Shown one piece after another: positions 9,094-26,857 of a stretch of DNA of 26,857 bases (positions are counted from its first letter, which is position 1; the number at the start of each line of letters is the position of its first letter). Under the pieces are notes generated by a model. That model ran no database searches. It saw only the letters and a program-made list of their open reading frames with translations, and was not told the DNA's origin. This DNA comes from a virus. The translations under genes and the position numbers were made by a program. The stretch is taken from the UHGV virus genome UHGV-0196088; one strand, written 5' to 3'.

Positions 9094-9152
9094 AGGTCTG
9101 TATTCCTTCGCGTTGCTGGGGGTTAAAATTGGCTAGAGGATGAGGAGGAATC

Positions 9153-9353
9153 GTGTGGACCAATGTTGTAACTAATCGCCGGTGGGTATGGCCGTTGTTT
9201 GCTTTACTCGTCATCGGTACGGTCGTTTTCGCTGTTTTGTGGATGAGCGGTGTCGTGCATCCCGTCACGGGCATCGCTAATGCAGCAGGTTTCGCAATAT
9301 GTGCGATCGGGCTTGTAGCGTGGCATCTTGCCACTCGTGGTTTGCAGCGATGA
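9153..9353 (+). CDS. Small membrane protein (2 predicted TM helices), opposite-strand accessory gene
   Basis: 66-aa ORF with a GTG start preceded by GAGGAGGAA (strong RBS, ~5-nt spacing). Two hydrophobic helices (WVWPLFALLVIGTVVFAVLWM, AAGFAICAIGLVAW). Its stop overlaps the next start (ATGA). Confidence 0.6.
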   Translation: MWTNVVTNRRWVWPLFALLVIGTVVFAVLWMSGVVHPVTGIANAAGFAICAIGLVAWHLATRGLQR

Positions 9354-16139: not shown

Positions 16140-16511
16140 ATGAAAGCGCCCTCAAAACAGTCGTGGGCACTGATGAGTGTCCTGCTAGTGGCATTTTGGT
16201 TGTTGCCGCTCATCTCCATGTGGATCAGCAGGCTGAGCGATCCCAACGCCAAGTGGTTCATCGCGTTGCTCTTCCTCGCGTTTCCACTACTCACCATCGT
16301 TTTGAGCGTTATCGATGGGGCACGCCACGGGTTCGGCTGGTGGTGGCTACTGGTCCCGTTCGCAGGGTTCTTGACCACACTGTTCGTGTACTACAACGAT
16401 TCAGCTCTCATCTACGGCGTCGCCTACTCGATCTTGGGACTGATCGGCACAGGCATCGGCGCGTTCATCCATGCGCGTACTCACAGCACGAGTAGGCCGC
16501 GTTCGTCATAA
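16140..16511 (+). CDS. Four-TM integral membrane protein, opposite-strand accessory gene
   Basis: 123-aa ORF with four clear hydrophobic helices. It occupies the gap between the TerL stop and the portal start and overlaps the TerL 3' end convergently by about 30 nt. A TAGAAT -10-like hexamer lies just upstream, implying a short or absent leader. Confidence 0.6.
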   Translation: MKAPSKQSWALMSVLLVAFWLLPLISMWISRLSDPNAKWFIALLFLAFPLLTIVLSVIDGARHGFGWWWLLVPFAGFLTTLFVYYNDSALIYGVAYSILGLIGTGIGAFIHARTHSTSRPRSS

Positions 16512-18112
16512 ACACTGCCGCTGACGTGCCCGCTGCCGTTTCGGATAGCGCGGTCAAGAGCCATGATGGTGGCGACCACGCCGTCAATCTTCTCCGTGGA
16601 CTTTTGCTTGTCGGGTTTGATGTTTCCTGCTGGGTCGGTGCGAACGTGAATGTTGTCTACCATCCATGACAGGACTGGGTGACCGCCATGGGCGAGCTTA
16701 CCTTCGAGTGCGAGCTTCATCAGCTCCTTCGACGGCGGGCTCATATCCTTAAAGCCCTGCCCGAAGGGAACGACGGTGAAACCGAGGCCTTCGAGGTTTT
16801 GACTCATTTGCACAGCACCCCACCGGTCGAACGCAATCTCACGAATATCAAACCGTTCACCTAGCTGTTCAATGAAGGCTTCAATCGCTCCGTAATGAAC
16901 GACGTTGCCCTCAGTCGTCTCTAGGTAGCCTTTTTGCTGCCACAGGTCGTAGGGCACATGGTCACGGGCTACTCGCAGTTTGAGGTTGTCTTGCGGTATC
17001 CAGAACCATGGCGCAATCACATACCGCTCGTCACCGGTTTCGGGTGGGAAGACGAGCACGAACGCGGTGATATCCGTCGTCGAGGCAAGATCGAGCCCGC
17101 CGTAACACACCCGCCCCTCCAAATCTGACAGGTCGACGGGTGCGTTGTTTTGGTTCCACACGTGCATGGGCATCCACCGCACGCTTTGTTTGACCCATTG
17201 GTTGAGGCGAAGTTGTCGGAACGTGTTCTCCTCAGCCGGATTCTGCCTGGCCGAGGTGCAGGCTTGGCGGACTTTCTCAATCGGAACCGTGATCCCCAAG
17301 CTCGGATTAGCCTTATGCCACACGTCCTCGTCGGTCCAGTCATCCTCTCTGTCAGCACCGTAGATGACCGGGTAGAACGTCGGGTCATGTTTCTTGCCTG
17401 CGAGGATGTCTTCAGCTTTCTCATGCTGCTCATAACAAATCGAATGCGTGTCGGTACCGGCCGTCGTGATGAGGAAGTACAACGGCTGCGTGCGAGCATC
17501 ACCCGAACCCTTGGTCATCACGTCGAACAAGGCACGGCCCGGTTGGGTGTGGAGTTCGTCGAAGACGACACCAGAAATGTTGAACCCGTGCTTCGAATAC
17601 GCCTCAGCGCTCAACACTTGATAGAAGGAGTTGGTGGGCTTGTAAATAATCCGCTTCTGCGAGGCAAGAATCTTGACACGCTTGGACAACGCTGGACTCA
17701 TGCGGATCATGTCCGCCGCGACCTCAAACACAATCGAGGCTTGCTGGCGGTCTGCCGCACACCCATACACTTCAGCGCGTTCTTCACCATCCCCGCAGGT
17801 GAGCAGGAGCGCGACCGCTGCGGCAAGCTCCGACTTGCCCATCTTCTTCGGAATCTCGACATAGGCGGTGGTGAACTGGCGGTAACCGTCCGCTTTGACG
17901 GTGCCGAACAGGTCACGGATGATCTGCTCTTGCCAATCAATGAGCTGGAACGGTTTGCCTGACCAGCGGCCCTTCGTGTGCTTGAGCGCTTGAATGAAGG
18001 CCACCGCATAGTCGGCTTTGCGCTTGTCATAGCGTGAGCCGTCAGCCATGAACCGGGTTGGCGTATAGGTTTCTAGTTGACGCATCGTGTCCCACCTCCT
18101 CTCCAGTGGCAT
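16481..18112 (-). CDS. Terminase large subunit
   Basis: ORF-track coordinates; the probable true start is the ATG near 18085 (MRQLETYTPTRF...), preceded by GGAGAGGAGGTG. Contains a TKGRWSGKPFQLIDWQ motif, an ATPase Walker-A-like KKMGKSELAA, and a C-terminal nuclease domain. Confidence 0.9.
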   Translation of the reverse strand: MPLERRWDTMRQLETYTPTRFMADGSRYDKRKADYAVAFIQALKHTKGRWSGKPFQLIDWQEQIIRDLFGTVKADGYRQFTTAYVEIPKKMGKSELAAAVALLLTCGDGEERAEVYGCAADRQQASIVFEVAADMIRMSPALSKRVKILASQKRIIYKPTNSFYQVLSAEAYSKHGFNISGVVFDELHTQPGRALFDVMTKGSGDARTQPLYFLITTAGTDTHSICYEQHEKAEDILAGKKHDPTFYPVIYGADREDDWTDEDVWHKANPSLGITVPIEKVRQACTSARQNPAEENTFRQLRLNQWVKQSVRWMPMHVWNQNNAPVDLSDLEGRVCYGGLDLASTTDITAFVLVFPPETGDERYVIAPWFWIPQDNLKLRVARDHVPYDLWQQKGYLETTEGNVVHYGAIEAFIEQLGERFDIREIAFDRWGAVQMSQNLEGLGFTVVPFGQGFKDMSPPSKELMKLALEGKLAHGGHPVLSWMVDNIHVRTDPAGNIKPDKQKSTEKIDGVVATIMALDRAIRNGSGHVSGSVYDERGLLVL

Positions 18113-18116
18113 AAGA

Positions 18117-18140
18117 AAAGCCCCAACAAGCGGGGCGAAA
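18117..18140 (-). terminator. Weak intrinsic terminator candidate upstream of TerL
   Basis: On the minus transcript: GCCCC-GCUUGUU-GGGGC followed by UUUUCUUAU, between the small ORF ending at 18195 and the TerL RBS. Confidence 0.3.
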
Positions 18141-18194
18141 AGTTCTCAGCGCACAGCGCCCAAACCATGTAGGTACAGGCGCGTTGCGCAGGGT

Positions 18195-18389
18195 TTAGAT
18201 CAGGGCGTCGAGCGCGGCATATTCAGCGCGACGCTGGTCGAGCTGGTGGGCGATGATGGAGGAGCGGAAGCCGTTCTTCTCCCGTCCCAGCTTGTTTTCT
18301 AGGGCGGTGATCTCGGCCTTGCGACGTTTCATCACCTCGATCGTGTCGCCGCCTTGGATTGCTTGCTTGTCGCGTTCGAAACTGTTCAT
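18195..18389 (-). CDS. Small hypothetical protein (64 aa, charged, predicted helical)
   Basis: The ORF track extends to 18518, but the ATG near 18389 (MNSFERDKQ...) is 8 nt downstream of AAGGAG. Preceded by leader element copy A. Confidence 0.5.
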   Translation of the reverse strand: MNSFERDKQAIQGGDTIEVMKRRKAEITALENKLGREKNGFRSSIIAHQLDQRRAEYAALDALI

Positions 18390-18395
18390 GACCAT

Positions 18396-18490
18396 CTCTC
18401 CTTCTCTTGTTTGGTCATGTACATACAGCCATAGACCCGCGACTATATCCAGTCGTTTTCGGCGTATTTTCAAGGGAAAATAGCGATGGT
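18396..18490 (-). promoter_or_regulatory. Conserved leader element, copy A (candidate promoter/operator plus RBS)
   Basis: Core CTTGTTTGGTCATGTACATACAGCCATA (plus strand) with flanking conservation (TATCCAGTCGT, GAAAATAG); about 95 bp near-identical to copy B. Contains the palindrome ATGTACAT and ends in the RBS of the downstream ORF. Confidence 0.6.
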
Positions 18491-18606
18491 CGCCACTCGC
18501 GCACTGAGGCGTTGTCACGAGCCAAACAAGACGGAAGATGCGCCCAGTATGTAAGTGGCAAGCCCAGATCCGTGCCCTGGTCGGTGTGGGTTGGGGCTAG
18601 CGCGGT

Positions 18607-18879
18607 TTAGAGAGCGTTGATCATGCCGATCGCCCAGGCAGTTGCGTGGCCTTCGTCGGTGAAGGCTTCATCGGATTCGGCAGCGAGCATCACTGGGGCG
18701 TTCTTACCTTGGCCTAGGATCTGGAAGATCGCTACGAAATGCTCGTAGGTGCCGAGGGAGTCGTTCCAGATGCGGTTGGTGGCGATCAGGTGAGTGCCGT
18801 AGCGCATCGCGTGTCCCAGGATCTTGTAGTGCTTGGCAACCGCTGTGGTGGTCTTCAAGGCTGTAAGTTCGTTGTTCAT
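18607..18879 (-). CDS. Small hypothetical protein (90 aa)
   Basis: ATG preceded by AAGGAG at ~7-nt spacing, directly after leader element copy B. No recognisable motif. Confidence 0.55.
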   Translation of the reverse strand: MNNELTALKTTTAVAKHYKILGHAMRYGTHLIATNRIWNDSLGTYEHFVAIFQILGQGKNAPVMLAAESDEAFTDEGHATAWAIGMINAL

Positions 18880-18885
18880 GACCTT

Positions 18886-18985
18886 GCTCCTTCTCTTGTT
18901 TGATCATGTACATACAGCCATACGTCGCCGCGCATATCCAGTCGTCTTCCGCGTATTCACGAGGAAAATAGAGATTCTGGTCTCT
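18886..18985 (-). promoter_or_regulatory. Conserved leader element, copy B
   Basis: Same core as copy A with one mismatch (CTTGTTTGATCATGTACATACAGCCATA) and the same flanking blocks. Confidence 0.6.
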
Positions 18986-18999
18986 CGCTTCTGCTCGGG

Positions 19000-19647
19000 T
19001 TATTCGGCCGGGTGTGGCGCGGTTTTCCACGCCGCATTACCTTCCAAATTCGCAAGTAACACCCGGCGGGCGGTCTTGTATCCCTCGCCAAGCATTCCCA
19101 GGCGTAGGAGCCAGCAGCGCATCGCATACTTATCATTCCCTGGTTCAGGTGGTTTCGGTGAGATGCGGGTGGAGGTCTTGGCTTGCTCGATCATCAGCTG
19201 GATAAGCACGCTAGCCACCTCAATCACCTCCGCCTCAGGAAGCTGATCGAACCAAGCAAACTCAACCGTTCCTTCCACCTCGTCCATCTTCATGGGCGTG
19301 GCCGGAATATCGAGTGCCTTGGCGATGAGTGCTCCCTTGGCGGCGAGCAGGGCTTCGAGCTTCGCTGCTGTGGCCTCGTCCCACCCGGTCGTGGGGAATG
19401 CGAGCGTCAGCCCGTACTCCTCGCCCGTGGGCGCAAAACCAGCCGTAATCGCCGCCTCGGTGAGGGAGTCGGTGTCGATGTCCTCTGGGAGGTGGAGCAC
19501 CCAATCCCGATCTAGCCGGGCTTGCCCGATCAGGTAGTCGAAAGAAGGCGTACCCGCATACACGGGGTTCACGCCGAGATGGGCGGCGAGGGCTTCGGCG
19601 AGTTTCTTGCGCCCTCTCTTGTTCGGGGAGAAAGGAATCCGGGTCAT
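19000..19647 (-). CDS. Hypothetical protein (about 215 aa), translationally coupled to the upstream acidic ORF
   Basis: Likely start MTRIPFSPNKRGRKK... at the ATG near 19647, preceded by GGAGGTG inside the 3' end of the upstream ORF. Basic N-terminus, acidic central region. No recognisable family. Confidence 0.55.
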   Translation of the reverse strand: MTRIPFSPNKRGRKKLAEALAAHLGVNPVYAGTPSFDYLIGQARLDRDWVLHLPEDIDTDSLTEAAITAGFAPTGEEYGLTLAFPTTGWDEATAAKLEALLAAKGALIAKALDIPATPMKMDEVEGTVEFAWFDQLPEAEVIEVASVLIQLMIEQAKTSTRISPKPPEPGNDKYAMRCWLLRLGMLGEGYKTARRVLLANLEGNAAWKTAPHPAE

Positions 19648-19829
19648 GCTGCCACCTCCTGGTCGAACCAAGATGCGATGAAACCGAGATAGTCATCTGG
19701 GTAGTCGTTGATGCAGGTTGCGGCTAGCTCGAAGTCGTGTTCGCAGGCGTACCCGAATGCTTCAGCACGGTTCCACAGGTCGACGCCTGCTTCTAGCATT
19801 TCGGTCAGTTCAATATGTAGTTCGCTCAT
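19644..19829 (-). CDS. Small strongly acidic protein (about 61 aa)
   Basis: MSELHIELTEMLEAGVDLWNRAEAFGYACEHDFELAATCINDYPDDYLGFIASWFDQEVAA: about 14 Asp/Glu against one Arg. GGAGG RBS; the same ATGGTCATGA start context as the ORF at 18389; leader element copy C upstream. Confidence 0.55.
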   Translation of the reverse strand: MSELHIELTEMLEAGVDLWNRAEAFGYACEHDFELAATCINDYPDDYLGFIASWFDQEVAA

Positions 19830-19866
19830 GACCATCCTCCAATTCGTGTTTCCCCCAGTTAGGGAT

Positions 19867-19925
19867 CTTGTTTGGTCATGTACATACAGCCATAGGTGCG
19901 CCCGCTTATCCAGTCGTATTGGCTG
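19867..19925 (-). promoter_or_regulatory. Conserved leader element, copy C
   Basis: Identical 28-bp core (CTTGTTTGGTCATGTACATACAGCCATA) plus the TATCCAGTCGT block; located just 3' of the C5-MTase stop and about 38 nt upstream of the acidic ORF start. Confidence 0.55.
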
Positions 19926-21417
19926 CTTTTTGTAGCCTGTTTAGGACGTATTTCACTACTGGTAATGCCACCCCATTTCCCCACAGTTTGTACTGTGCTG
20001 AATCAGTTGGCGCGGTTTTCAGCCAAGTAGTGATTTGGCTGCGAGTTTTCGGTTTCACGCCCCGTCCTAGGTTCCAGTTCTTCCACACGCCCTCCCAGTA
20101 CCTGATTTCGTCTTCGTCTGGGTCGAGGTTTGTGAGGTTGTCACACCAATAGTCCGGGAAGCCTTGTAGACGAGAACATTCGAGGGGTGTGAGTTTGCGT
20201 GGGCGAAGCATCGTATTAGCGACAATAGGTGGCTGGTGTGAATCACTTGCCAAAAGTGCACCAGCAACATTTGTAGTTGCCCTCGTGAAATGATCAGATT
20301 TCGAAGAAGCATAGATCGGTTCGAGAATGACCATTCCGCCTTGATTGCATGCGGGATTACCGCCAGCTAAATCAAGAGTTTTTGCCACAGTGGTTTCGTA
20401 ACCGCATTCACCACCATATTTACGATTGTCGTGGACGGAATTTATACCGTATACAGGTTGGTCGAGTAGGAGTGGAACATTTCCACCTCCTGTTCCCATT
20501 CGTGAAGTTAAGGTTTGACTTGTTACCTGGTCGCCAATTTCGATGCGCGAATCATTGGGATGGTAATCAAGCATCACCTGCATGCTAGGTTTAAATAAGA
20601 CTTGGTCAGCACCAGTTCCTAATGTGCCTGAAAGGTCATGCTGAATCAACGGCCCTTTACCACCGCCTGGCTTACCGGCACGCATACGAAGAGTTAACGC
20701 CCCGCACCGGTTGCCTGTAGTGCTTGGGCTAATTGCTCGGGCAGGGTTTTGTTTTTCTTCTTTGCTCGCGTCAGGATTCCTTGTGCTGCTTTGGGACTCA
20801 AATAGAATCTCGGGTGCGGATTGTCCTGCAAAATCTGCGACAAGGAAGATACGACGACGACGTTGGGGCACTCCGAAAAATTGAGCATCGAGCACTCGCC
20901 ATGCAAGTGATGCCCCATCTGCCAAGACGTATCCGCTGGTTGCCCAGCTGGTTTCAGGAACAGGAATGCGTGGCGTTTGCTGGCAGGACACCTCGATAAA
21001 CGCTTGCAAGACCGCGGCAAAGTCGGCCCCGTGGTTTGAGGAGAATACGCCCGGCACGTTTTCCCACACAGCATATCTTGGGTAGACACCATGAGTTGCT
21101 TGCCTCATTTCTTCAATAATCCGCACAGCTTGGTAAAACAGTGAGGAGCGAGACCCATCAATCCCGCTCCGCTTACCTGCGATAGATAAATCCTGACAAG
21201 GTGAACCAAACGTGATCACATCCACCGGCTGTAACCGGCCACCATCTAACAAATTAATATCGCCAACATGGCGAACTTCAGGCAGATTTTTCCTCGTTAC
21301 CCGGATAGCGAAGGGGTCTACCTCAGATGCCCACATCGGTTTGATACCAACCATTTTGGCAGCTAAAGGGAAACCGCCCGAACCATCAAACAAGGAACCC
21401 AACGTCAAAGCACTCAC
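19906..21417 (-). CDS. DNA (cytosine-5)-methyltransferase
   Basis: 503 aa with motif I (LFDGSGG), motif IV (GSPCQDLSIAG), motif VI (ENVPG), motif VIII (QRRRRIFLVA), a large variable target-recognition region, and a C-terminal GFPDYW motif. GTG start overlaps the stop of the upstream MTase (GTGA). Confidence 0.95.
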   Translation of the reverse strand: MSALTLGSLFDGSGGFPLAAKMVGIKPMWASEVDPFAIRVTRKNLPEVRHVGDINLLDGGRLQPVDVITFGSPCQDLSIAGKRSGIDGSRSSLFYQAVRIIEEMRQATHGVYPRYAVWENVPGVFSSNHGADFAAVLQAFIEVSCQQTPRIPVPETSWATSGYVLADGASLAWRVLDAQFFGVPQRRRRIFLVADFAGQSAPEILFESQSSTRNPDASKEEKQNPARAISPSTTGNRCGALTLRMRAGKPGGGKGPLIQHDLSGTLGTGADQVLFKPSMQVMLDYHPNDSRIEIGDQVTSQTLTSRMGTGGGNVPLLLDQPVYGINSVHDNRKYGGECGYETTVAKTLDLAGGNPACNQGGMVILEPIYASSKSDHFTRATTNVAGALLASDSHQPPIVANTMLRPRKLTPLECSRLQGFPDYWCDNLTNLDPDEDEIRYWEGVWKNWNLGRGVKPKTRSQITTWLKTAPTDSAQYKLWGNGVALPVVKYVLNRLQKAANTTG

Positions 21418-22715
21418 GATTCACCCCGATCAACATCCCGCACCAAATCCAAATACGCGTATTCCTTGCCCTCACGCAAACAGGTGATACCTGCCGCGTC
21501 CCCGGTGTGTTCGGCATACCGGCGCAAAATCACGGAGGCGTATTTCTCGTCGAGCTCCATCGCATAACAGATGCGGTCGCTGGCCTCGCACGCCATCAAG
21601 GTTGAGCCTGAGCCTGCGAACGTGTCGAGCACGATCGCGTTCGCCTGAGTGGAGTTCCCAATCGGATAAGCCAACAAATCCAGCGGTTTAGAGGTGGGGT
21701 GGTCGGCGTTGCGGCGTGGCTTAGCGAAATTCCAGATCGTGGTCTGCTTACGATCCGCATACCAGCGATGCTTACCCGTCTTCACCCATCCAAAGAGCAC
21801 CGGCTCGTGCTGCCACTGATACGGGGAACGTCCCAATACGAGGGAATCTTTGACCCAGATGCAACATCCGGAGAGGTAGAAGCCAGCGTCTTGGAAGGCT
21901 CTGCGGAAGTTTAAGCCTTCAGTGTCAGCGTGAAAAACGTAGGCGGACGCGCCCTTCTCACACACGCCCGCCATATTCGTAAACGCTGCGAGAAGGAAGT
22001 CGTAGAACTTATCGCCATCCATCTTGTCGTTCTTAATCGACAAACCCGACCCTGATTCGAAGGCGACGTTATATGGCGGATCGGTCAACACAAGATTCGC
22101 ACGCTTACCATCCATCAACAACTCGACGTCCTCGGCGCTGGTGGCGTCGCCACAGACAAGTCGGTGGCGGCCGACTGTCCACACATCCCCACGCTCCACG
22201 AAAGTAGCAGCTTCTAACGCGGCGGTGAGGTCGAAATCATCATCCTCCACATCACCCTCATCCAATGAGCCGATAAGCTGCGCGATCTCAGCATCGTCAA
22301 AACCGGTCAGTTCAGCATCGAAATCCGAAGAGTCAAGGTCAGCGATGAGGAGGGCAAGTTTGTCGTTGTCCCATTCGCCACTGATCTTGTTCATCGCAAC
22401 GTTCAGCGCCTTTTCGCGCATTTCGTCAAGTTCGACGACGACGCAGTCCACGGTTTCTTGTCCCAAGTGTTTGAGAACGGACAATCGCTGATGACCAGAG
22501 ATGACGGTGTTGTCATTCGCCGCGTTAACCACCACTAGCTCGACGTAGCCGAACTCAGTCAGGGAGCGCTTAAGCTTTTCAAACTCAGCATCGCCAGGCT
22601 TGAGTTCCTTACGCGGGTTATATGCGGCAGGTTTCAGTTCAGCTATCGGTAGCTGCTTGATTATCATGGACATAGGTGGAGCCTTTCTTGAATAAGAAGC
22701 TGGCTGATGCCCCAA
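21414..22715 (-). CDS. ParB-like nuclease domain fused to an N6-adenine (DPPY-type, beta-class) DNA methyltransferase
   Basis: N-terminal ParB-like region (IAELKPAAYNPRK...ISGHQRL), then DPPY (LVLTDPPYNV) followed by FAGSGST. The likely true start is MSMIIKQ near 22673, which would reduce the overlap with the HNH gene. Confidence 0.9.
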   Translation of the reverse strand: MGHQPASYSRKAPPMSMIIKQLPIAELKPAAYNPRKELKPGDAEFEKLKRSLTEFGYVELVVVNAANDNTVISGHQRLSVLKHLGQETVDCVVVELDEMREKALNVAMNKISGEWDNDKLALLIADLDSSDFDAELTGFDDAEIAQLIGSLDEGDVEDDDFDLTAALEAATFVERGDVWTVGRHRLVCGDATSAEDVELLMDGKRANLVLTDPPYNVAFESGSGLSIKNDKMDGDKFYDFLLAAFTNMAGVCEKGASAYVFHADTEGLNFRRAFQDAGFYLSGCCIWVKDSLVLGRSPYQWQHEPVLFGWVKTGKHRWYADRKQTTIWNFAKPRRNADHPTSKPLDLLAYPIGNSTQANAIVLDTFAGSGSTLMACEASDRICYAMELDEKYASVILRRYAEHTGDAAGITCLREGKEYAYLDLVRDVDRGES

Positions 22716-23206
22716 TCGCCAATAAGTTCGTAGACACGTTTCGTTTCTGCTTCAACCTTCGGGTGGCACGAGCGGCAAAGAACTGCGAGATTATTGCCCC
22801 AGCGCTCGCCTCCACATTTGGTTGGGATGATGTGGTGCACAATGAGATTGCACCTGCTTCCACACCGTCTGCAGATCCCGCGTTTGCGAAGCTTTTGAGA
22901 GAGCTGCTGCCAGTGATAGTCATAGGGACCATACGTGCGCATCGCCTGAGCGTTTTGCCTCAAGACGTTAGTTAGTCGCTGTCTTTTCGAATCGGAGTAT
23001 TCACGCCATTTGCAAGATGTGTGCGCACCGATTTTCGCTTTTGTTTCGGGCGAATGATAGTTCTCACCAAGAGCCTCCTTGCGTCGTCTGAGGCCTGCCG
23101 AAACTTTCTTTCTAAACTCAGGATCTTTGTTCTTCTCAATGAGGTCTTTGCGGCTCTTTTGCCATTCATTTTGACAAGGCACCGAACAAAAGAATTGAGA
23201 AGGCAC
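22664..23206 (-). CDS. HNH endonuclease
   Basis: C-terminal HNH/zinc motif (CRRCGSRCNLIVHHIIPTKCGGERWGNNLAVLCRSCH) and a basic N-terminal region. The gene is visibly lower in G+C than its neighbours. The start is uncertain (GTG at 23206 or an internal ATG). Confidence 0.8.
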   Translation of the reverse strand: MPSQFFCSVPCQNEWQKSRKDLIEKNKDPEFRKKVSAGLRRRKEALGENYHSPETKAKIGAHTSCKWREYSDSKRQRLTNVLRQNAQAMRTYGPYDYHWQQLSQKLRKRGICRRCGSRCNLIVHHIIPTKCGGERWGNNLAVLCRSCHPKVEAETKRVYELIGDWGISQLLIQERLHLCP

Positions 23207-23261
23207 CCGATTTCAGGCATACCTACGCGTTCCCCGCACACCGCATGTGGCGCATTCGTAT

Positions 23262-24440
23262 TCAACCTTCATGCCTTGTAATCGCTTTCTTTAGCGCGTC
23301 GACGTGAGCGAACGAGTTTTCCCAATGCAGACCTGTATGACCGAAGTGCCCATAGGTTGAATACTGTGTAAAGCTAGGCTTGCGAAGGTTCAAGGCATCG
23401 ATGATTGCTCCAGGGCGCAGCGAGAATACTTCGCGTGCTGCCTCGGTCAGGATCTCGTCGGAGTATTCACCACTGCCGAGGGTGTCAACAGTGAAGGCGA
23501 CTGGGTCAGCCTTCCCAATCGCATAAGAAATGCTTACTTGGCACTCGATGGCCAACCGTGCGTCGACGATCGTTTTCGCGATCAGGCGCGCCATATAGGC
23601 ACCCGAACGATCCACTTTCGAGGCGTCCTTGCCTGAGAACGCACCACCACCATGGAGCGCGAGACCGCCGTAAGTATCAACCATCAACTTGCGACCCGTC
23701 AGACCCGTGTCCGCCTTCGGCCCACCCACCGTAAACAAGCCTGAGGGATTCACCAGAATCTCGGTGTCAGCGCTAATCGGCAGGTACAGCTTACAAGCGG
23801 GTGCGACGATCAGTGTTTTGACCTCAGCTGCAAGCTCATCTAGATCCTTGATCTTCTCGTGTTGGATCGACACCACCACGGTCTCAATCGCCAGCGGTTG
23901 TCCGGCGGCGTCGTAGCGAACCGTCACCTGCGCCTTACCATCGGACTTGATACCGGTGATCGTGCCTTGCTTGCGGGCATTGTCGAGCCGGGCGCAAATC
24001 TCATGAGAGAGCACAAGCGGCAGCGGCAAACGCTCCGGAGTCTCACGAGTGGCATAACCGTAAACAGTGCCTTGATCGCCAGCACCCTGCAAAGCGAATT
24101 CGGTGTCATCCCCAAAGCGTGCCTCTAAGGACTTGGAGACTCCGGCATTGATATCTGGGGATTGGCGGCGTGTCCAGACGAAGACGAGGAACTTCCACGG
24201 CACATAACCCGCCTCCATCAACGCGTAACGCACCGACTCACGAATGCGCGGACGAACCTTCGAAGTGATCTCGCCAGTGACGATGATCCGATGCCCGCTA
24301 GCCATCACTTCTACTGCGACGCGGGCAGCAGGATCCTCGTAGAGGATATCGTCAAGGATCGTGTCAGCGATCAGGTCGCAGAGCTTATCGGGATGGCCGA
24401 CACACACGGCCTCAGCAGTCTTCGTAACAGACATACACAC
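23262..24440 (-). CDS. metK: S-adenosylmethionine synthetase (methionine adenosyltransferase)
   Basis: MetK signature motifs by eye: GHPDKLCD near the N-terminus, GAGDQG, DTYGG, GGGAFSGKDASKVDRSGAY, and a YAIG C-terminal region. The probable start is the ATG two codons in (MSVTKTAEAV...). Confidence 0.95.
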   Translation of the reverse strand: MCMSVTKTAEAVCVGHPDKLCDLIADTILDDILYEDPAARVAVEVMASGHRIIVTGEITSKVRPRIRESVRYALMEAGYVPWKFLVFVWTRRQSPDINAGVSKSLEARFGDDTEFALQGAGDQGTVYGYATRETPERLPLPLVLSHEICARLDNARKQGTITGIKSDGKAQVTVRYDAAGQPLAIETVVVSIQHEKIKDLDELAAEVKTLIVAPACKLYLPISADTEILVNPSGLFTVGGPKADTGLTGRKLMVDTYGGLALHGGGAFSGKDASKVDRSGAYMARLIAKTIVDARLAIECQVSISYAIGKADPVAFTVDTLGSGEYSDEILTEAAREVFSLRPGAIIDALNLRKPSFTQYSTYGHFGHTGLHWENSFAHVDALKKAITRHEG

Positions 24441-24464
24441 TCACTTTCCAAGGAATCGGGACAT

Positions 24465-24495
24465 AGAAAAGTGCCCACCCATCCGGGGCAGGCAC
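24465..24495 (-). terminator. Intrinsic terminator candidate between TerS and metK
   Basis: On the minus transcript: GUGCCUGCCC-CGGAU-GGGUGGGCAC (~10-bp stem with G-U pairs) followed by UUUUCUAU. Coordinates are approximate. Confidence 0.3.
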
Positions 24496-24513
24496 ACGAA
24501 AATCAAAGGGGTG

Positions 24514-25086
24514 TTAGGAGCGTGCTTTGAGCAGTTGCTCCATCACGTCATCACCCGGAGCCGTGCCCGAGTAGTCGGTGGTGCAGGTGGCGCGGACGAT
24601 CTCGTAAATCTCGTACCAGTACACGTTCGCTTGCTTCCCGAACGACTGGGACATGGCGACGAAGGGGGACGCGATTGCAGCCCCTGTGGTTGGGTGCTTG
24701 CCAAGTAGGCCGAACTTGGAGATCGCCTGCTCACACTGCACATAGCGCGCGAACGCCTGCGCATAGGCTTCGATCAGACGTGGGGCGACGAACTGGGAAC
24801 AGCCACGTTGATCGAGCCATTGCCACGTTTCTCGGTAGACCAGGTCAGCACCGAGTGGTTTGCCATCCCGCTGAACCTCAGACAAATACTCGCTAGGTTC
24901 TGGCATGGTCTCCCCGGCGAGCACTGCGCCCTCACCCACATCGGAGCCGCTGAAATCAAACACGTCCTCAAGCGGATCATGCAACCTAGTCGCAGGGCTG
25001 CCTTTGGCAACCTTCTCACTCAACGCATCCGGCTTCGCACCCGCACGCACCCGACGTCCACCCCTGTTAGTACCATCCTTAGCCAT
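24514..25086 (-). CDS. Terminase small subunit (P27-family-like)
   Basis: 190 aa; basic N-terminus (MAKDGTNRGGRRVRAGAKP), central ...LIEAYAQAFARYVQCEQAISKFGLLGKHPTTGAAIASPFVAM... resembling P27-type small terminases. GGAGG RBS. First late gene after an AT-rich promoter region. Confidence 0.6.
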   Translation of the reverse strand: MAKDGTNRGGRRVRAGAKPDALSEKVAKGSPATRLHDPLEDVFDFSGSDVGEGAVLAGETMPEPSEYLSEVQRDGKPLGADLVYRETWQWLDQRGCSQFVAPRLIEAYAQAFARYVQCEQAISKFGLLGKHPTTGAAIASPFVAMSQSFGKQANVYWYEIYEIVRATCTTDYSGTAPGDDVMEQLLKARS

Positions 25087-25101
25087 GGGAATCCTCCCCT
25101 C

Positions 25102-25130
25102 TTGCTGGACGTGCTGATACTCTATATAAT
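25102..25130 (+). promoter_or_regulatory. Near-consensus sigma-70-type promoter (TTGCTG - 17 nt - TATAAT) facing the plus-strand membrane gene
   Basis: Read directly in the AT-rich spacer between the TerS start and the plus-strand ORF; a TTGACA hexamer lies a few nt downstream. The same region probably holds the divergent promoter for TerS. Confidence 0.45.
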
Positions 25131-25185
25131 TTCACCAGTTGACATAATTAGCATCGGTAATGGAGAGTCTTCGTGGACTACTGAG

Positions 25186-25638
25186 ATGGAAGCGACCAAT
25201 AACTTATCCAATCGTGGGATTCGGTATAGATGGCTGCTAGGTATTACCTTTGTATTTTTCGCTTGCCATGTTTCCTACACCGTTTTAGCTCTTACGCTTC
25301 CGAGTATTCAGCTACTCGGGTCACTTTTGATCGCTGTATCAATACCCGTTAGCGCTCTTTTTGGTTGTGTCCTGCCACTCAGAGGGTTTAACTCTCGATT
25401 CTTGATTAAATCTGGGTTCTCTATTTTCGTTGGCATTGTAGCGGCTTACGCCACGGCACAACTAGCTGAGAGTGGCAATTTATCAGTGCGAGCAATGCTC
25501 TGCGGGCACCTCGCACTCAATCTGACAATCTACACTTTAATGTGTGGTTTAACGACAATCTATATTCGCCGTCAGCAAACTGGGTGTACTCGACGCCCAG
25601 AAACCACTGAGGATCAACAACTAGACGACAATCAATAG
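25186..25638 (+). CDS. Integral membrane protein (about 150 aa, ~4 TM helices) in a low-G+C island
   Basis: In-frame ATG within track ORF 24808..25638. Hydrophobic helices (WLLGITFVFFA, LLGSLLIAVSIPVSALFGCVL, GFSIFVGIVAAYATA, LALNLTIYTLMCGL). The region is visibly AT-richer than the phage genes. Confidence 0.55.
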   Translation: MEATNNLSNRGIRYRWLLGITFVFFACHVSYTVLALTLPSIQLLGSLLIAVSIPVSALFGCVLPLRGFNSRFLIKSGFSIFVGIVAAYATAQLAESGNLSVRAMLCGHLALNLTIYTLMCGLTTIYIRRQQTGCTRRPETTEDQQLDDNQ

Positions 25639-25673
25639 TCTACAGGTGCCCAACAACCCTACCCTCTTACTGA

Positions 25674-26183
25674 TCATTTCTCCGACTCAGGTAGGCTTTT
25701 CGTTCCTTTGTTCAACGCGTCAGTGAGGTTTTCAATAAACGATTCACTATGATCAATGATTACCGTTGCCCCATCTTTGATCACAACATGCACGGACGTT
25801 GTATTCGGGTAGTTGGCGTTTACCTCTGTCAATTTGCCATCATATGTAAACCAACGAAGTGTTATATCGCTACGGGAAATTTTACGTGCAGACTCTGAAC
25901 AGACCTGATGTGGTACATCAGCTGGTGATGCTGAGTGAGTGTCAACGCATACCTGGCCTTTAGTTTGATAAACGTCAACGGTATTGTTGCCAGAGTCGGC
26001 TCTAGCCACCAAATACTTCGCATCGATTTTGGGAGAGGTAACCACGACTCCAGGGATTAGATTGAAATAGAGCGCGATTAAAATTCCGAGGATAGAGAGC
26101 GCGCAGGCAGCAATAATGAGTGCTATTTTTCTTATTCTGAGAACAAGAATTCTAGTTTTCACATTGTTGCTGCCTGCGTTCAT
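25674..26183 (-). CDS. N-terminally membrane-anchored protein with ~120-aa extracytoplasmic domain
   Basis: 169 aa: basic stretch (KTRILVLRIRK), then one TM helix (IALIIAACALSILGILIALYF), then a soluble domain with two Cys. Low G+C; immediately downstream of the next ORF. Confidence 0.55.
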   Translation of the reverse strand: MNAGSNNVKTRILVLRIRKIALIIAACALSILGILIALYFNLIPGVVVTSPKIDAKYLVARADSGNNTVDVYQTKGQVCVDTHSASPADVPHQVCSESARKISRSDITLRWFTYDGKLTEVNANYPNTTSVHVVIKDGATVIIDHSESFIENLTDALNKGTKSLPESEK

Positions 26184-26195
26184 TGCTTTGCGCTC

Positions 26196-26857
26196 CTATC
26201 CAGCTGCTCCGATTGCCACCAGCCCTCCGACTAGCCCAGCTTCGGGTGCGACGACAACTACAACGGCAGCGAGTGCCACGAGCGCGACAACACCGACTGC
26301 TACAGCAACTGCCTCGCCAGAAACCTCGGGTAGTCGCAATTCTACACCTAGCGTTGGATGCAGGGTGACCTCATAGGTGACAGTCACGGACATGGTGGAC
26401 TTTACTGCGGTGTTTCCGCTTGCAAGGTTATCTGAATCCACTCGAATCCATGCCTGCAATGAAGTGGGATCCACAACTGTGAGTCCATATGAAATATTTC
26501 CTGACTTAACAGACCCTGCTATACGTTTGATTTTTGAGGCGAAGTCACCATTGGAACCGAGATCTTTCACATCGAAGGTTGCGCTTGCGGAGTCAATTGA
26601 ACTGAGAGTCGAGGCTGACAGTTCTCCCGCATTGTTTACCGTGATGTTAGTTGAAAACAATTCATTAGAGGATGTCGTCGCTTGAGTCGCGATATGTGCT
26701 GAGACCTTCATGTCGAAAGTTGGCGTATGCACATTGCCAAGCTCAAGTGTCTGGCCGTATTCCCAGCCAACAGAAGAAAAGCTTGGGTAGTAACCCAAGG
26801 GCTCAAGTACACGTCGCACGAAAGTTTCTCGTGCGATCTCGAGCAGATTACGTCGGT
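26196..26857 (-). CDS. Ser/Thr-rich surface-type protein with hydrophobic C-terminal segment; 5' end probably beyond the window
   Basis: The ORF stays open to the window edge. Beta-rich Ser/Thr/Asn-rich sequence ending in a long hydrophobic Ala/Val/Gly stretch preceded by LPEVSG. Confidence 0.45.
   Translation of the reverse strand, partial: RRNLLEIARETFVRRVLEPLGYYPSFSSVGWEYGQTLELGNVHTPTFDMKVSAHIATQATTSSNELFSTNITVNNAGELSASTLSSIDSASATFDVKDLGSNGDFASKIKRIAGSVKSGNISYGLTVVDPTSLQAWIRVDSDNLASGNTAVKSTMSVTVTYEVTLHPTLGVELRLPEVSGEAVAVAVGVVALVALAAVVVVVAPEAGLVGGLVAIGAAG

What the first reader, a model, noticed from the sequence alone, without database searches (positions are those of the whole stretch)
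18113..25086. Small and large terminase genes separated by about 6.4 kb of accessory genes
Seen in sequence: the TerS-like gene ends near 24514 and TerL starts near 18085, with metK, HNH, two MTases and four small ORFs between them. Terminator-like hairpins lie after TerS and just before TerL. Established knowledge: TerS and TerL are usually adjacent. Inference: this junction is a hotspot for accessory cargo in this phage lineage, or the TerS call is wrong and the true TerS is one of the unassigned ORFs nearer TerL.
Basis: partly seen in the sequence, partly recalled or inferred. Interest (0 to 1): 0.45.

Follow-up and report, generated by a model that had tools for sequence, protein, structure and literature searches.

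The report
Split terminase genes flanking DNA-methylation module
In this prophage the small and large terminase genes really are 6.4 kb apart, but this is the normal, inherited gene order of a very widespread phage lineage, in which a conserved DNA-methylation gene set sits between them, so it is ordinary rather than strange.

Summary
TerS (24514-25086, minus strand) and TerL (start 18085) are 6,428 nt apart. Between them lie MetK, an HNH gene, a ParB-fused N6/N4 methylase, a C5 methylase and four small ORFs. Terminator-like hairpins follow TerS and precede TerL.

The TerS call holds: PF05119 is above its cut-off, PHROG 83 scores 8e-28, and there is a profile match to a canonical P27 TerS. No ORF near TerL is TerS-like.

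The split is not local. In 62 of 63 non-redundant related loci TerS and TerL are 2.5-8.4 kb apart. The interval has a conserved core, ParB-methylase (57/63) and a 215-aa protein (61/63). MetK, Dcm, Nmad4, amidase, GGCT and HNH are variable extras.

The arrangement marks one TerL subclade of the Heliusvirales-like phages. Sister clades such as phi1207.3 keep the same module but have a canonical TerS abutting TerL. The same gene order was reported for a Bacillus cereus prophage in 2012.

The HNH here is a recent ~600-bp insertion.

I also found a conserved 40-nt promoter-like motif, present three times here and always upstream of TerL in relatives. It suggests, without proving, that terS and terL lie in different transcription units.

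Interest is low to moderate.

The parts
24514..25086 (-). terS: a divergent P27-family small terminase subunit of 190 aa.
24471..24495 (-). Terminator-like hairpin directly after terS, followed by TTTTCT.
   Evidence: Found. Hairpins with different stems sit at the same place in many Actinomycetaceae-phage relatives. They are absent in Firmicute relatives, where the next gene abuts terS.
23262..24434 (-). metK: S-adenosylmethionine synthetase.
   Evidence: PF00438, PF02772 and PF02773 all match strongly. The GAGDQG motif is readable in the translation. Present in 37/63 related intervals. Some Firmicute relatives carry a shorter 260-aa protein with only the MetK N-terminal domain.
22664..23206 (-). 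Free-standing HNH endonuclease gene (180 aa, GTG start), a recent insertion.
   Evidence: PF01844 at 6.9e-9. It is a clean ~600-bp insertion at the MetK/ParB-methylase junction relative to L012, L014 and L020. It occurs in only 4/63 intervals. Its best homolog (61% identity) occupies the same position in Erysipelothrix phage phi1605. Gene callers on the source contigs missed it.
21414..22673 (-). DNA methyltransferase with a ParB N-terminal domain fused to an N6-adenine/N4-cytosine methylase domain.
   Evidence: PF02195 plus PF01555, and phrog_498 at 8.7e-176. The DPPY motif is readable. Present in 57/63 intervals, always next to TerS or MetK.
19906..21417 (-). C5-cytosine DNA methyltransferase (503 aa).
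   Evidence: PF00145 at 7.9e-47. The PCQ and ENV motifs are readable. Present in 25/63 intervals.
19876..19915 (-). Copy 3 of the conserved two-box motif GACTGGATA-N12-TATGGCTGTATGTACATGA. It lies upstream of the 63-aa ORF and overlaps the end of the C5 methylase gene.
19644..19835 (-). 63-aa ORF with no family match. Its stop overlaps the start of the 215-aa gene (ATGA).
19000..19647 (-). 215-aa protein conserved across the lineage, labelled 'virulence protein' in databases.
18904..18943 (-). Copy 2 of the conserved two-box motif, upstream of Nmad4.
18607..18879 (-). Nmad4 (nucleotide modification associated domain 4) protein, 90 aa.
   Evidence: PF18756 at 2.8e-22. Nmad4-like ORFs occur in at least 30/63 intervals and often sit directly before TerL.
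18415..18454 (-). Copy 1 of the conserved two-box motif, upstream of the 66-aa ORF.
18195..18395 (-). 66-aa ORF with no family match, the last gene before terL.
   Evidence: Present in only 13/63 intervals, so it is not a universal packaging component.
18120..18136 (-). Terminator-like hairpin followed by TTTTCTTATGCC, 35 nt before the terL start codon.
   Evidence: Found. A hairpin at the same position occurs in most relatives, including Firmicute and Gardnerella phages. The stems differ while the tail is conserved.
16481..18085 (-). terL: large terminase subunit (534 aa from the ATG at 18085; the open frame begins at 18112).
   Evidence: PF03354 plus PF20441, and phrog_9 at 1.4e-189. It is 74.5-79% identical to the TerL of records labelled Ca. 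Heliusvirales.

Best explanation
**Shown.** The 190-aa gene is this phage's small terminase, a divergent P27-family member. The window is part of a temperate, HK97-like siphophage that infects Actinomycetaceae. It belongs to, or sits right next to, the proposed order Ca. Heliusvirales. In one TerL-defined subclade of that lineage, terS lies just after the packaging-associated HNH gene and ahead of a conserved DNA-modification module. That module therefore separates terS from terL. Its usual content is a SAM synthetase, a ParB-fused N6/N4 methylase, often a C5 methylase, a 215-aa ligase-like protein, Nmad4 and some small ORFs. The separation is inherited and typical of the clade. Only part of the content is variable cargo, and the HNH at 22664-23206 is a recent mobile insertion.

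**Inferred: how it works.** TerS and TerL are separate proteins that assemble in trans, so their genes need not be adjacent. The module most likely methylates replicated phage DNA before or during packaging, using its own SAM supply, so that progeny genomes resist host restriction. Placing these genes with the packaging genes times their expression correctly.

**More tentative.** A conserved two-box motif is repeated three times after the methylases. Together with a hairpin right before terL, it suggests that terS and the methylases are transcribed separately from a late unit that begins just upstream of terL.
For: **TerS identity**.
- PF05119 is above its cut-off and phrog_83 scores 8e-28.
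- NCBI names homologs as P27 TerS.
- There is a profile match to a canonical TerS.
- It shares the N-terminal basic motif, NRGGRRVRAGAKP here against QRGRKPKP in phi1207.3 Orf38.

**Lineage-wide split**.
- The gene order TerS-[MetK]-ParB-methylase-...-TerL is seen in Javan105, TPDSL_ph1, an Anaerosphaera phage, NatCom_2329, Gardnerella vB_Gva_AB1 and phi1605.
- Across 63 non-redundant loci the median gap is 4,466 nt, and 62 of 63 gaps are at least 2.5 kb.

**Complementary distribution of the two TerS types**.
- The 32 phage records with TerL at least 74.5% identical to the window's coincide with the TerS-190 set.
- Records with TerL at 65-72% carry a canonical PF05119 TerS (105-111 bits) abutting TerL, and no 190-aa homolog.
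- No canonical TerS is found in any of the 91 TerS-190 loci.

**Precedent.** Xu et al. 2012 (PMC3592412) list the order Vrr-nuclease, integrase, HNH, TerS (Bce_0390), ParB-MTase, C5 MTase in a B. cereus prophage, with TerL at Bce_0397.

**Lineage.** De Jonge et al. 2024 (PMC11283538) report the C5 methylase in 67% and SAM synthetase in 58.9% of Heliusvirales genomes.

**Enzymes look intact.** The DPPY, PCQ/ENV, GAGDQG and HNH motifs can all be read.

**Motif**. There are 3 exact copies against 0 expected. In IMG/VR, all 151 hits in loci that contain the TerL start are on TerL's strand, 335-2,648 nt upstream.
Against: - The match to curated TerS models is weak. TIGR01558 scores 16.2 against a cut-off of 45.6, and hhalign probability is only 65%.
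- No sequence-level PDB hit was found.
- Packaging function, methylation of virion DNA and transcription units were not and cannot be tested here.
- One 7-kb metagenomic contig (L047) lacks the whole module. There TerS is fused to an Nmad4-like tail next to TerL. So the module may be dispensable, or that contig may be defective.
- In sister clades the slot before the ParB-methylase holds an unrelated HTH/zinc-ribbon protein. This leaves some room for the idea that whatever sits in that slot serves the methylase.
Confidence: 0.8

Rival explanations
1. The TerS call is wrong, and the true small terminase is one of the unassigned ORFs close to TerL.
For: The fit of the 190-aa protein to curated TerS models is weak. 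Adjacency of terS and terL is the common rule, from established knowledge.
Against: None of the 63-, 215-, 90- or 66-aa products matches any TerS family in Pfam, PHROGs or NCBIfam. The ORF next to TerL differs between relatives: the 66-aa ORF occurs in 13/63 loci, and elsewhere Nmad4 or nothing sits there. The 215-aa protein is alpha/beta and ligase-like. A TerS-190 profile finds no second copy near TerL.
Confidence: 0.03
2. The junction is simply a hotspot where unrelated accessory genes have accumulated between two once-adjacent terminase genes in this particular phage.
For: Interval length and content vary (2.5-8.4 kb, with sporadic MetK, Dcm, amidase, GGCT and HNH). The HNH is demonstrably a recent insertion. 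Repeated leader motifs could act as recombination joints.
Against: The ParB-methylase (57/63) and the 215-aa protein (61/63) are near-universal and keep a fixed order. The same module exists in sister clades where TerS abuts TerL. So the module predates the split and was not assembled piecemeal between terS and terL.
Confidence: 0.1
3. The 190-aa protein derives from TerS but now serves the modification module, for example by loading the ParB-methylase onto DNA. Packaging would then use no small subunit, or an unrecognised one.
For: It is always next to MetK or the ParB-methylase. It is separated from TerL by hairpins and by the promoter-like motif. In sister clades the same slot holds another small DNA-binding protein (HTH plus zinc ribbon) while a canonical TerS sits by TerL.
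Against: The two TerS types are mutually exclusive and track the TerL subclade. This is what functional replacement predicts. The ParB-methylase works in genomes without the 190-aa protein. Its position right after the packaging HNH is the classical terS position in HK97/P27-type phages (Xu et al. 2012; Kala et al. 2014, from my own knowledge).
Confidence: 0.06
4. The arrangement is an assembly chimera or a decaying, rearranged prophage.
For: The region upstream of TerS has lower GC (0.47-0.48) and carries a lysin-like gene out of its usual place.
Against: The identical TerS protein lies on 17 contigs, and the six places shown, from separate samples, have the same gene order. All enzymes have intact motifs. 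Cultured-phage genomes share the order.
Confidence: 0.01

Closest known systems
Bacillus cereus ATCC 10987 prophage packaging region (Xu et al. 2012, NAR 41:378, PMC3592412)
   Same: The gene order is HNH endonuclease, terminase S, ParB-MTase, C5 MTase, with TerL several genes further on (TerS Bce_0390, TerL Bce_0397). This is the same split and the same first genes in the interval.
   Different: The host phylum differs. That paper mentions neither a SAM synthetase nor a second HNH. The paper did not discuss the split itself. The ParB-MTase there was reported to nick DNA non-specifically, which is untested here.
Streptococcus phage phi1207.3 / phi-m46.1 group and other Ca. Heliusvirales subclades (Iannelli et al. 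2014, PMC4260502; de Jonge et al. 2024, PMC11283538)
   Same: TerL, portal and ParB-methylase are homologous (64%, 63% and 57% identity). The module order is the same: MetK-HNH-ParB-methylase-Dcm-small ORFs. The promoter-like motif is also the same.
   Different: There a canonical 157-159-aa PF05119 TerS abuts TerL and the module lies upstream of it. Here the divergent 190-aa TerS lies upstream of the module and nothing TerS-like abuts TerL.
HK97 / P27-type packaging triad HNH-TerS-TerL (Kala et al. 2014 PNAS, cited from my own knowledge; HK97 TerS structure 8POP)
   Different: The triad is interrupted twice here. A 3.7-kb lysin-like cassette lies between HNH and terS, and the 6.4-kb module lies between terS and terL.
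Late-gene control by phage sigma-like activators (RinA/ArpU/LtrC superfamily, Quiles-Puchalt et al. 2013) and by the lambda PR'-tR' promoter-terminator pair (both cited from my own knowledge)
   Same: A 152-aa activator or sigma-like gene (phrog_248/36/351) lies upstream of the packaging genes. A conserved promoter-like motif and a terminator-like hairpin lie just before the first late gene.
   Different: There is no evidence here for binding, transcription starts or antitermination. The motif does not fit sigma-70 spacing. This is an analogy only.

Membership tests
P27-family phage terminase small subunit (Pfam PF05119 / TIGR01558) | The score reaches the curated Pfam gathering threshold for PF05119. 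| tested here: met
   27.3 bits against a cut-off of 24.7, covering residues 83-156. Many close homologs carry a precomputed PF05119 hit.
P27-family phage terminase small subunit (Pfam PF05119 / TIGR01558) | The score reaches the NCBIfam equivalog cut-off for TIGR01558. | tested here: not met
   16.2 bits against a cut-off of 45.6. The protein is therefore a divergent member rather than a typical one.
P27-family phage terminase small subunit (Pfam PF05119 / TIGR01558) | Homology to a canonical member over the whole domain. | tested here: met
   hhalign of alignment A1 against phi1207.3 Orf38 gives E 5.9e-5, 96 columns and probability 65%. BLASTP gives E 4e-5.
P27-family phage terminase small subunit (Pfam PF05119 / TIGR01558) | A small-terminase fold. 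| tested here: inconclusive
P27-family phage terminase small subunit (Pfam PF05119 / TIGR01558) | The gene is adjacent to terL. | tested here: not met
   It lies 6,428 nt from TerL. This is a habit of the family rather than a requirement, and the whole subclade shares the exception.
P27-family phage terminase small subunit (Pfam PF05119 / TIGR01558) | Binds the packaging site and activates TerL. | not testable with these tools
   This needs biochemistry or genetics.
Ca. Heliusvirales (de Jonge et al. 2024) | TerL falls in the lineage's TerL clade. | tested here: met
   TerL is 74.5-79% identical to records whose taxonomy line reads Ca. Heliusvirales. No tree was built.
Ca. Heliusvirales (de Jonge et al. 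2024) | The other marker genes are present: portal, major capsid protein, head protease, helicase, nuclease and DNA polymerase I. | tested here: inconclusive
   Portal, ClpP-type protease, capsid, SNF2 helicase, VRR-NUC and D5 primase are seen on the source contigs. DNA polymerase I lies outside the DNA fetched and was not checked.
ParB-fused DNA methyltransferase of prophages | A ParB N-terminal domain plus an N6_N4 methylase domain with a DPPY motif. | tested here: met
   PF02195 plus PF01555. 'LTDPPYN' is readable in the translation.
ParB-fused DNA methyltransferase of prophages | Methylation and/or nicking activity. | not testable with these tools
   Nicking was reported for the B. cereus homolog (cited in PMC3592412).
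Free-standing HNH homing endonuclease (for the gene at 22664-23206) | An HNH catalytic motif, presence/absence polymorphism at one precise site, and the same site occupied in distant genomes. | tested here: met
   PF01844. A clean insertion relative to L012, L014 and L020. A 61% homolog sits between MetK and the ParB-methylase in phi1605.
Free-standing HNH homing endonuclease (for the gene at 22664-23206) | Cleaves the empty target site. | not testable with these tools
   This needs an enzyme assay on the MetK/ParB-methylase junction of an HNH-less relative.
Rfam RNA families (for the repeated leader motif and the hairpins) | A match to any curated covariance model. | tested here: not met
   No hit at gathering threshold in the window. 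Only chance-level snoRNA hits at E up to 10 in 18050-20050.

The most novel reading that the evidence does not exclude
In this subclade terS may have been moved out of the late operon. On this reading, terS and the methylases form an earlier transcription unit closed by the hairpin after terS. A lineage-specific array of 1-4 promoter-like elements, read by the phage's own sigma-like activator, plus a terminator checkpoint 35 nt before terL, starts the true late unit. Recognition and methylation of the DNA would then be separated in time from the arrival of the packaging motor. The complementarity between the motif and the downstream start codons would add translational gating of the small ORFs.
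Probability: 0.3. Interest if true: 0.5.

Novelty: new member of a known kind. Interest (0 to 1): 0.3.

Why it matters
**Annotation.** The rule 'terS sits next to terL' fails systematically in a very common group of gut, oral and vaginal prophages.
- In the phage collection, the feature under the 190-aa TerS match was labelled 'hypothetical protein' in 27 of the 30 records listed.
- In at least one genome the HNH gene is labelled 'terminase small subunit' instead.

**Biology.**
- A self-sufficient methylation kit (SAM synthetase plus two methylases) is hard-wired into the packaging region across hosts from two phyla. This fits anti-restriction protection of progeny DNA.
- The conserved motif and the hairpin before terL give concrete, testable handles on late-gene control in a lineage that has almost no experimental work.

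Tried and rejected
- **Rfam scans.** The whole window at gathering threshold gave nothing. Region 18050-20050 at E up to 10 gave only chance-level hits.
- **tRNA scan.** Nothing found.
- **Near-identity DNA search of the region against phage genomes.** This found only a 54-nt hit, so no close cultured relative exists.
- **Sequence and profile searches of TerS against PDB chains.** Nothing found.
- **RNAalifold on 13 pre-TerL leaders.** The hairpins are therefore supported only by single-sequence folds.
- **TPDSL_ph1 genome ends.** I looked to see whether they mark a cos site next to terL. The record simply starts at the first codon of terL, so it says nothing about the physical ends.
- **The 163-168-aa proteins upstream of the ParB-methylase in sister clades.** I tested whether they are hidden TerS-190 homologs. 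They are not: hhalign probability is 0.4%, and they look like HTH plus zinc-ribbon proteins.
- **Fitting the motif to sigma-70 -35/-10 spacing, by eye.** No convincing fit. The simple promoter scan found nothing on the coding strand.
- **Literature search for Nmad4.** Nothing relevant was returned.

Full report
**1. What is in the sequence**

Every gene of the region is on the minus strand. Reading in the direction of transcription, the order is as follows.

| Feature | Coordinates | Evidence |
|---|---|---|
| terS, 190 aa | 24514-25086 | PF05119 27.3 bits vs cut-off 24.7; phrog_83 8e-28 |
| terminator-like hairpin, then TTTTCT | 24495-24471 | |
| metK | 23262-24434 | three MetK domains |
| HNH gene, 180 aa | 22664-23206 | PF01844 |
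| ParB_N + N6/N4 methylase | 21414-22673 | |
| C5 methylase | 19906-21417 | |
| 63-aa ORF | 19644-19835 | overlaps the next gene by ATGA |
| 215-aa ORF | 19000-19647 | middle part of phrog_2443 'amidoligase' |
| Nmad4 | 18607-18879 | PF18756 |
| 66-aa ORF | 18195-18395 | no family match |
| hairpin, then TTTTCTTATG | 18136-18120 | |
| terL | from the ATG at 18085 to 16481 | PF03354 + PF20441 |

The distance from the terS stop to the terL start is 6,428 nt. Catalytic motifs can be read directly in the translations: DPPY in the ParB-methylase, PCQ and ENV in the C5 methylase, GAGDQG in MetK, and the CxxC...HH...N...CxxH pattern in the HNH. None of these looks like a pseudogene.

**2. Is the TerS call right?**

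Several independent lines say yes.
- NCBI names close homologs 'P27 family phage terminase small subunit'. They come from Actinomycetaceae such as Arcanobacterium, Mobiluncus and Trueperella, which also identifies the likely host group.
- A profile of 30 family members aligns with phi1207.3 Orf38 over 96 columns, up to the C-terminus, with E 5.9e-5 and probability 65%. Orf38 is a canonical TerS that its authors report as PF05119 at 8e-31.
- Both proteins start with a similar basic Gly/Arg/Lys-Pro motif.

Weaknesses should be stated. TIGR01558 is far below its cut-off, at 16.2 against 45.6. There is no sequence match in the PDB.

The ORFs near terL fail every TerS test.
- They have no family hits.
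- The ORF adjacent to terL differs from relative to relative.
- A profile of the 190-aa family finds nothing among 417 interval ORFs except a split duplicate in L038.

**3. The split is the rule in this lineage**

Annotated relatives all show TerS, then MetK or a MetK-like protein, then the ParB-methylase, often a C5 methylase, a 'virulence protein' that matches the 215-aa family, small ORFs and only then TerL. This holds for Streptococcus phage Javan105, Terrisporobacter phage TPDSL_ph1, an Anaerosphaera phage, Ruminococcus phage NatCom_2329, Gardnerella phage vB_Gva_AB1 and Erysipelothrix phage phi1605. Several of these records carry the taxonomy line Ca. Heliusvirales.

A scan of IMG/VR with TerS found at least 590 related stretches. 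Among 63 non-redundant loci that contain both genes, the gap has a median of 4,466 nt and a range of 276-8,378 nt. It is at least 2.5 kb in 62 of 63.

Clustering the interval ORFs gives these frequencies:

| Gene family | Loci (of 63) |
|---|---|
| 215-aa protein | 61 |
| ParB-methylase | 57 |
| MetK | 37 |
| Nmad4-like | 30 |
| C5 methylase | 25 |
| amidase | 18 |
| 66-aa ORF | 13 |
| the HNH | 4 |
| GGCT | 3 |

The interval is thus a conserved core with variable additions.

The single exception, the 7-kb contig L047, has TerS fused in frame to the tail of an Nmad4-like ORF directly before TerL. This is a deletion of the whole module.

The identical TerS protein occurs on 17 contigs. The six places shown, from separate samples, have the window's gene order apart from a truncated methylase in L010. 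This rules out an assembly artefact.

**4. Where the split came from**

phi1207.3 has homologous TerL (64%), portal (63%), ParB-methylase (57%) and MetK (41%). Its module order is MetK-HNH-Orf31-ParB-methylase-Dcm-small ORFs. But its TerS is a canonical 158-aa protein abutting TerL, and it has no 190-aa homolog.

The same is true of the Heliusvirales phages of Blautia (L198) and Clostridium (L199). There PF05119 scores 105-111 bits for a TerS that touches TerL. The slot upstream of the ParB-methylase holds an unrelated HTH/zinc-ribbon protein, with hhalign probability 0.4% against the TerS-190 profile.

In the phage collection the two TerS types are mutually exclusive and track TerL identity.
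- The 32 records with TerL at least 74.5% identical to the window's are the TerS-190 set. Of these, 29 are listed, and three further records in that call were not listed.
- Records at 65-72% have the canonical, adjacent TerS.

The simplest reading is one event at the base of this subclade. Either terS was relocated, or it was replaced by a divergent P27 terS placed right after HNH, and the TerL-adjacent copy was lost.

The order HNH, TerS, ParB-MTase, C5 MTase, with TerL seven locus tags on, was already tabulated for a Bacillus cereus prophage in 2012 (PMC3592412). De Jonge et al. 2024 note that C5 methylase and SAM synthetase are the commonest 'auxiliary' genes of Heliusvirales, at 67% and 58.9% (PMC11283538). 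Neither paper discusses the split as such.

**5. Recent cargo**

The HNH at 22664-23206 is a clean ~600-bp insertion exactly at the MetK/ParB-methylase junction, where close relatives have overlapping stop and start codons. It occurs only in the window's own strain among the 63 loci. Its best homolog, at 61% identity, sits at the same junction in phi1605, a phage of another phylum. This is the signature of a site-specific homing endonuclease.

The canonical packaging HNH (125 aa) lies further upstream on the source contig. It is separated from terS by a 734-aa lysin-like gene and a 169-aa membrane protein of lower GC. Both sides of terS have therefore taken up cargo in this strain.

**6. Cis elements found on the way**

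*The two-box motif.* An 82-105-nt repeat occurs three times, each copy ending 19-46 nt before the start codon of a small ORF. Its core is GACTGGATA-N12-TATGGCTGTATGTACATGA. It is present three times exactly in the window, against none in 100 shuffles.
- Close relatives have 1-4 copies.
- A pattern scan of 2.9 million viral contigs found 193 hits. All 151 hits in loci that include the TerL start lie on TerL's strand, 335-2,648 nt upstream of it, with a median of 858 nt.
- A recognisably related two-box element, roughly GACTKG, a spacer, TTTAGAG, then GATATATGTAC, occurs at the same place in Firmicute and Gardnerella relatives and in the sister clades.
- In phi1207.3 two copies precede the MetK block, and one precedes Orf37-TerS-TerL.
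- Its fixed box spacing, its conservation across host phyla and the presence of a phage gene for a sigma-like or transcriptional activator (phrog_248/36/351) make a phage-specific late promoter the most economical reading. It does not fit sigma-70 spacing, and nothing was measured.
- In 65 of 82 distinct copies, a helix of at least 7 base pairs can form between the motif and the start-codon region. The recurring pairings are CATGACC/GGTCATG, ATGGCTGT/ACAGCCAT and ACCAAAC/GTTTGGT. This could mean translational gating or merely shared ancestry.

*The pre-terL hairpin.* A terminator-like hairpin within about 40 nt of the TerL start is present in most loci. The stems are lineage-specific, and the tail TTTTCTTATGCC is conserved even in Ruminococcus and Gardnerella phages. 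There is no room for a promoter between it and terL, so terL transcripts must read through it.

Together these elements suggest, but do not show, that terS plus the methylases and terL plus the structural genes are separate transcription units in this subclade.

**7. Verdict**

The explanation is an inherited genome architecture of a known, very widespread phage lineage, with a conserved DNA-methylation module between the terminase genes and some strain-specific cargo. It is a new member of a known kind. The parts that may be new are the clade-specific position of terS, and the conserved motif and hairpin in front of terL. These deserve a transcript-mapping experiment.

Noticed in passing
window 18415-18454, 18904-18943, 19876-19915 (minus strand): The two-box motif GACTGGATA-N12-TATGGCTGTATGTACATGA occurs three times. 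Each copy ends 19-46 nt before the start codon of a small ORF. In IMG/VR it is found only upstream of TerL on TerL's strand (151 of 151 hits). A related form occurs in Firmicute relatives. It may be a phage-specific late promoter or an RNA leader.
   Followed up: partly
window 18380-18440, 18870-18930, 19825-19890 (minus strand), and 82 copies in loci L006-L063: The sequence around the downstream start codon is complementary to part of the motif (CATGACC/GGTCATG, ATGGCTGT/ACAGCCAT or ACCAAAC/GTTTGGT) in 65 of 82 distinct copies. This could occlude the start codon, or it may reflect common descent.
   Followed up: partly
window 18100-18136 (minus strand); L003, L004, L005, L013, L036, L044, L048, L066 upstream of TerL: A hairpin directly before the TerL ribosome-binding site has different stems in different phages, but its tail TTTTCTTATGCC is conserved across host phyla. 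In L004 the same element also precedes the HNH gene (9145-9192).
   Followed up: partly
window 22664-23206 (minus strand): The HNH gene was not called on any of the source contigs, which instead list a 99-aa ORF on the opposite strand. It is a clean ~600-bp insertion with a 61% homolog at the same junction in Erysipelothrix phage phi1605.
   Followed up: yes
window 25674-26857 (minus strand) and L006 6687-9413: A lower-GC cassette (0.47-0.48) lies between the packaging HNH and terS. It holds a 734-aa PG_binding_1 + Rv2525c-like lysin-type protein and a 169-aa membrane protein. This is an unusual place for lysis-like genes.
   Followed up: partly
window 25087-25673: About 590 nt upstream of terS carry no called gene and are AT-richer than the rest. 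A possible 4-TM ORF on the plus strand (within 24808-25638) was not called by the source annotations. Javan105 also has about 590 nt without an annotated gene before its terS. This is a candidate region for the packaging site or a promoter.
   Followed up: no
window 16188-16511 (plus strand): A DUF2651 membrane-protein ORF lies on the opposite strand between terL and portal and overlaps the end of terL. The same junction holds a MerR regulator in Javan105 and an aminoglycoside nucleotidyltransferase in phi1605, so it is a second cargo site.
   Followed up: no
L047 3713-4552: A 7-kb metagenomic contig in which TerS is fused in frame to the tail of an Nmad4-like ORF, directly before TerL. This is a deletion of the whole modification module.
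   Followed up: partly
L038 12329-12925: A second, split copy of the 190-aa terS lies inside the TerS-TerL interval. This explains the largest gap seen (8,378 nt).
   Followed up: no
L004 9198-9545; phage records: There are annotation errors in public records. The 190-aa TerS match falls on a 'hypothetical protein' in 27 of the 30 records listed. In NatCom_2329 the HNH gene is labelled 'terminase small subunit'.
   Followed up: yes
L001 12577-13359; L002 12544-13329; L005 10505-11290: Firmicute and Gardnerella relatives carry a 260-aa protein after TerS that matches only the N-terminal domain of SAM synthetase. It may be a shortened or diverged MetK of unknown activity.
   Followed up: no
L198 2395-2901; L199 1287-1778; L092 12384-12788: In sister clades the slot directly upstream of the ParB-methylase holds a small protein with weak HTH and zinc-ribbon matches, unrelated to TerS. 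It may be a controller or DNA-binding partner of the methylase.
   Followed up: partly
window 19000-19647 (minus strand): The lineage-wide 215-aa 'virulence protein' has a confident predicted fold that weakly resembles the Pup ligase/deamidase (carboxylate-amine ligase) family, but it is less than half their size. Relatives pair it with a full amidoligase and a gamma-glutamyl cyclotransferase, both of which this phage lacks.
   Followed up: partly
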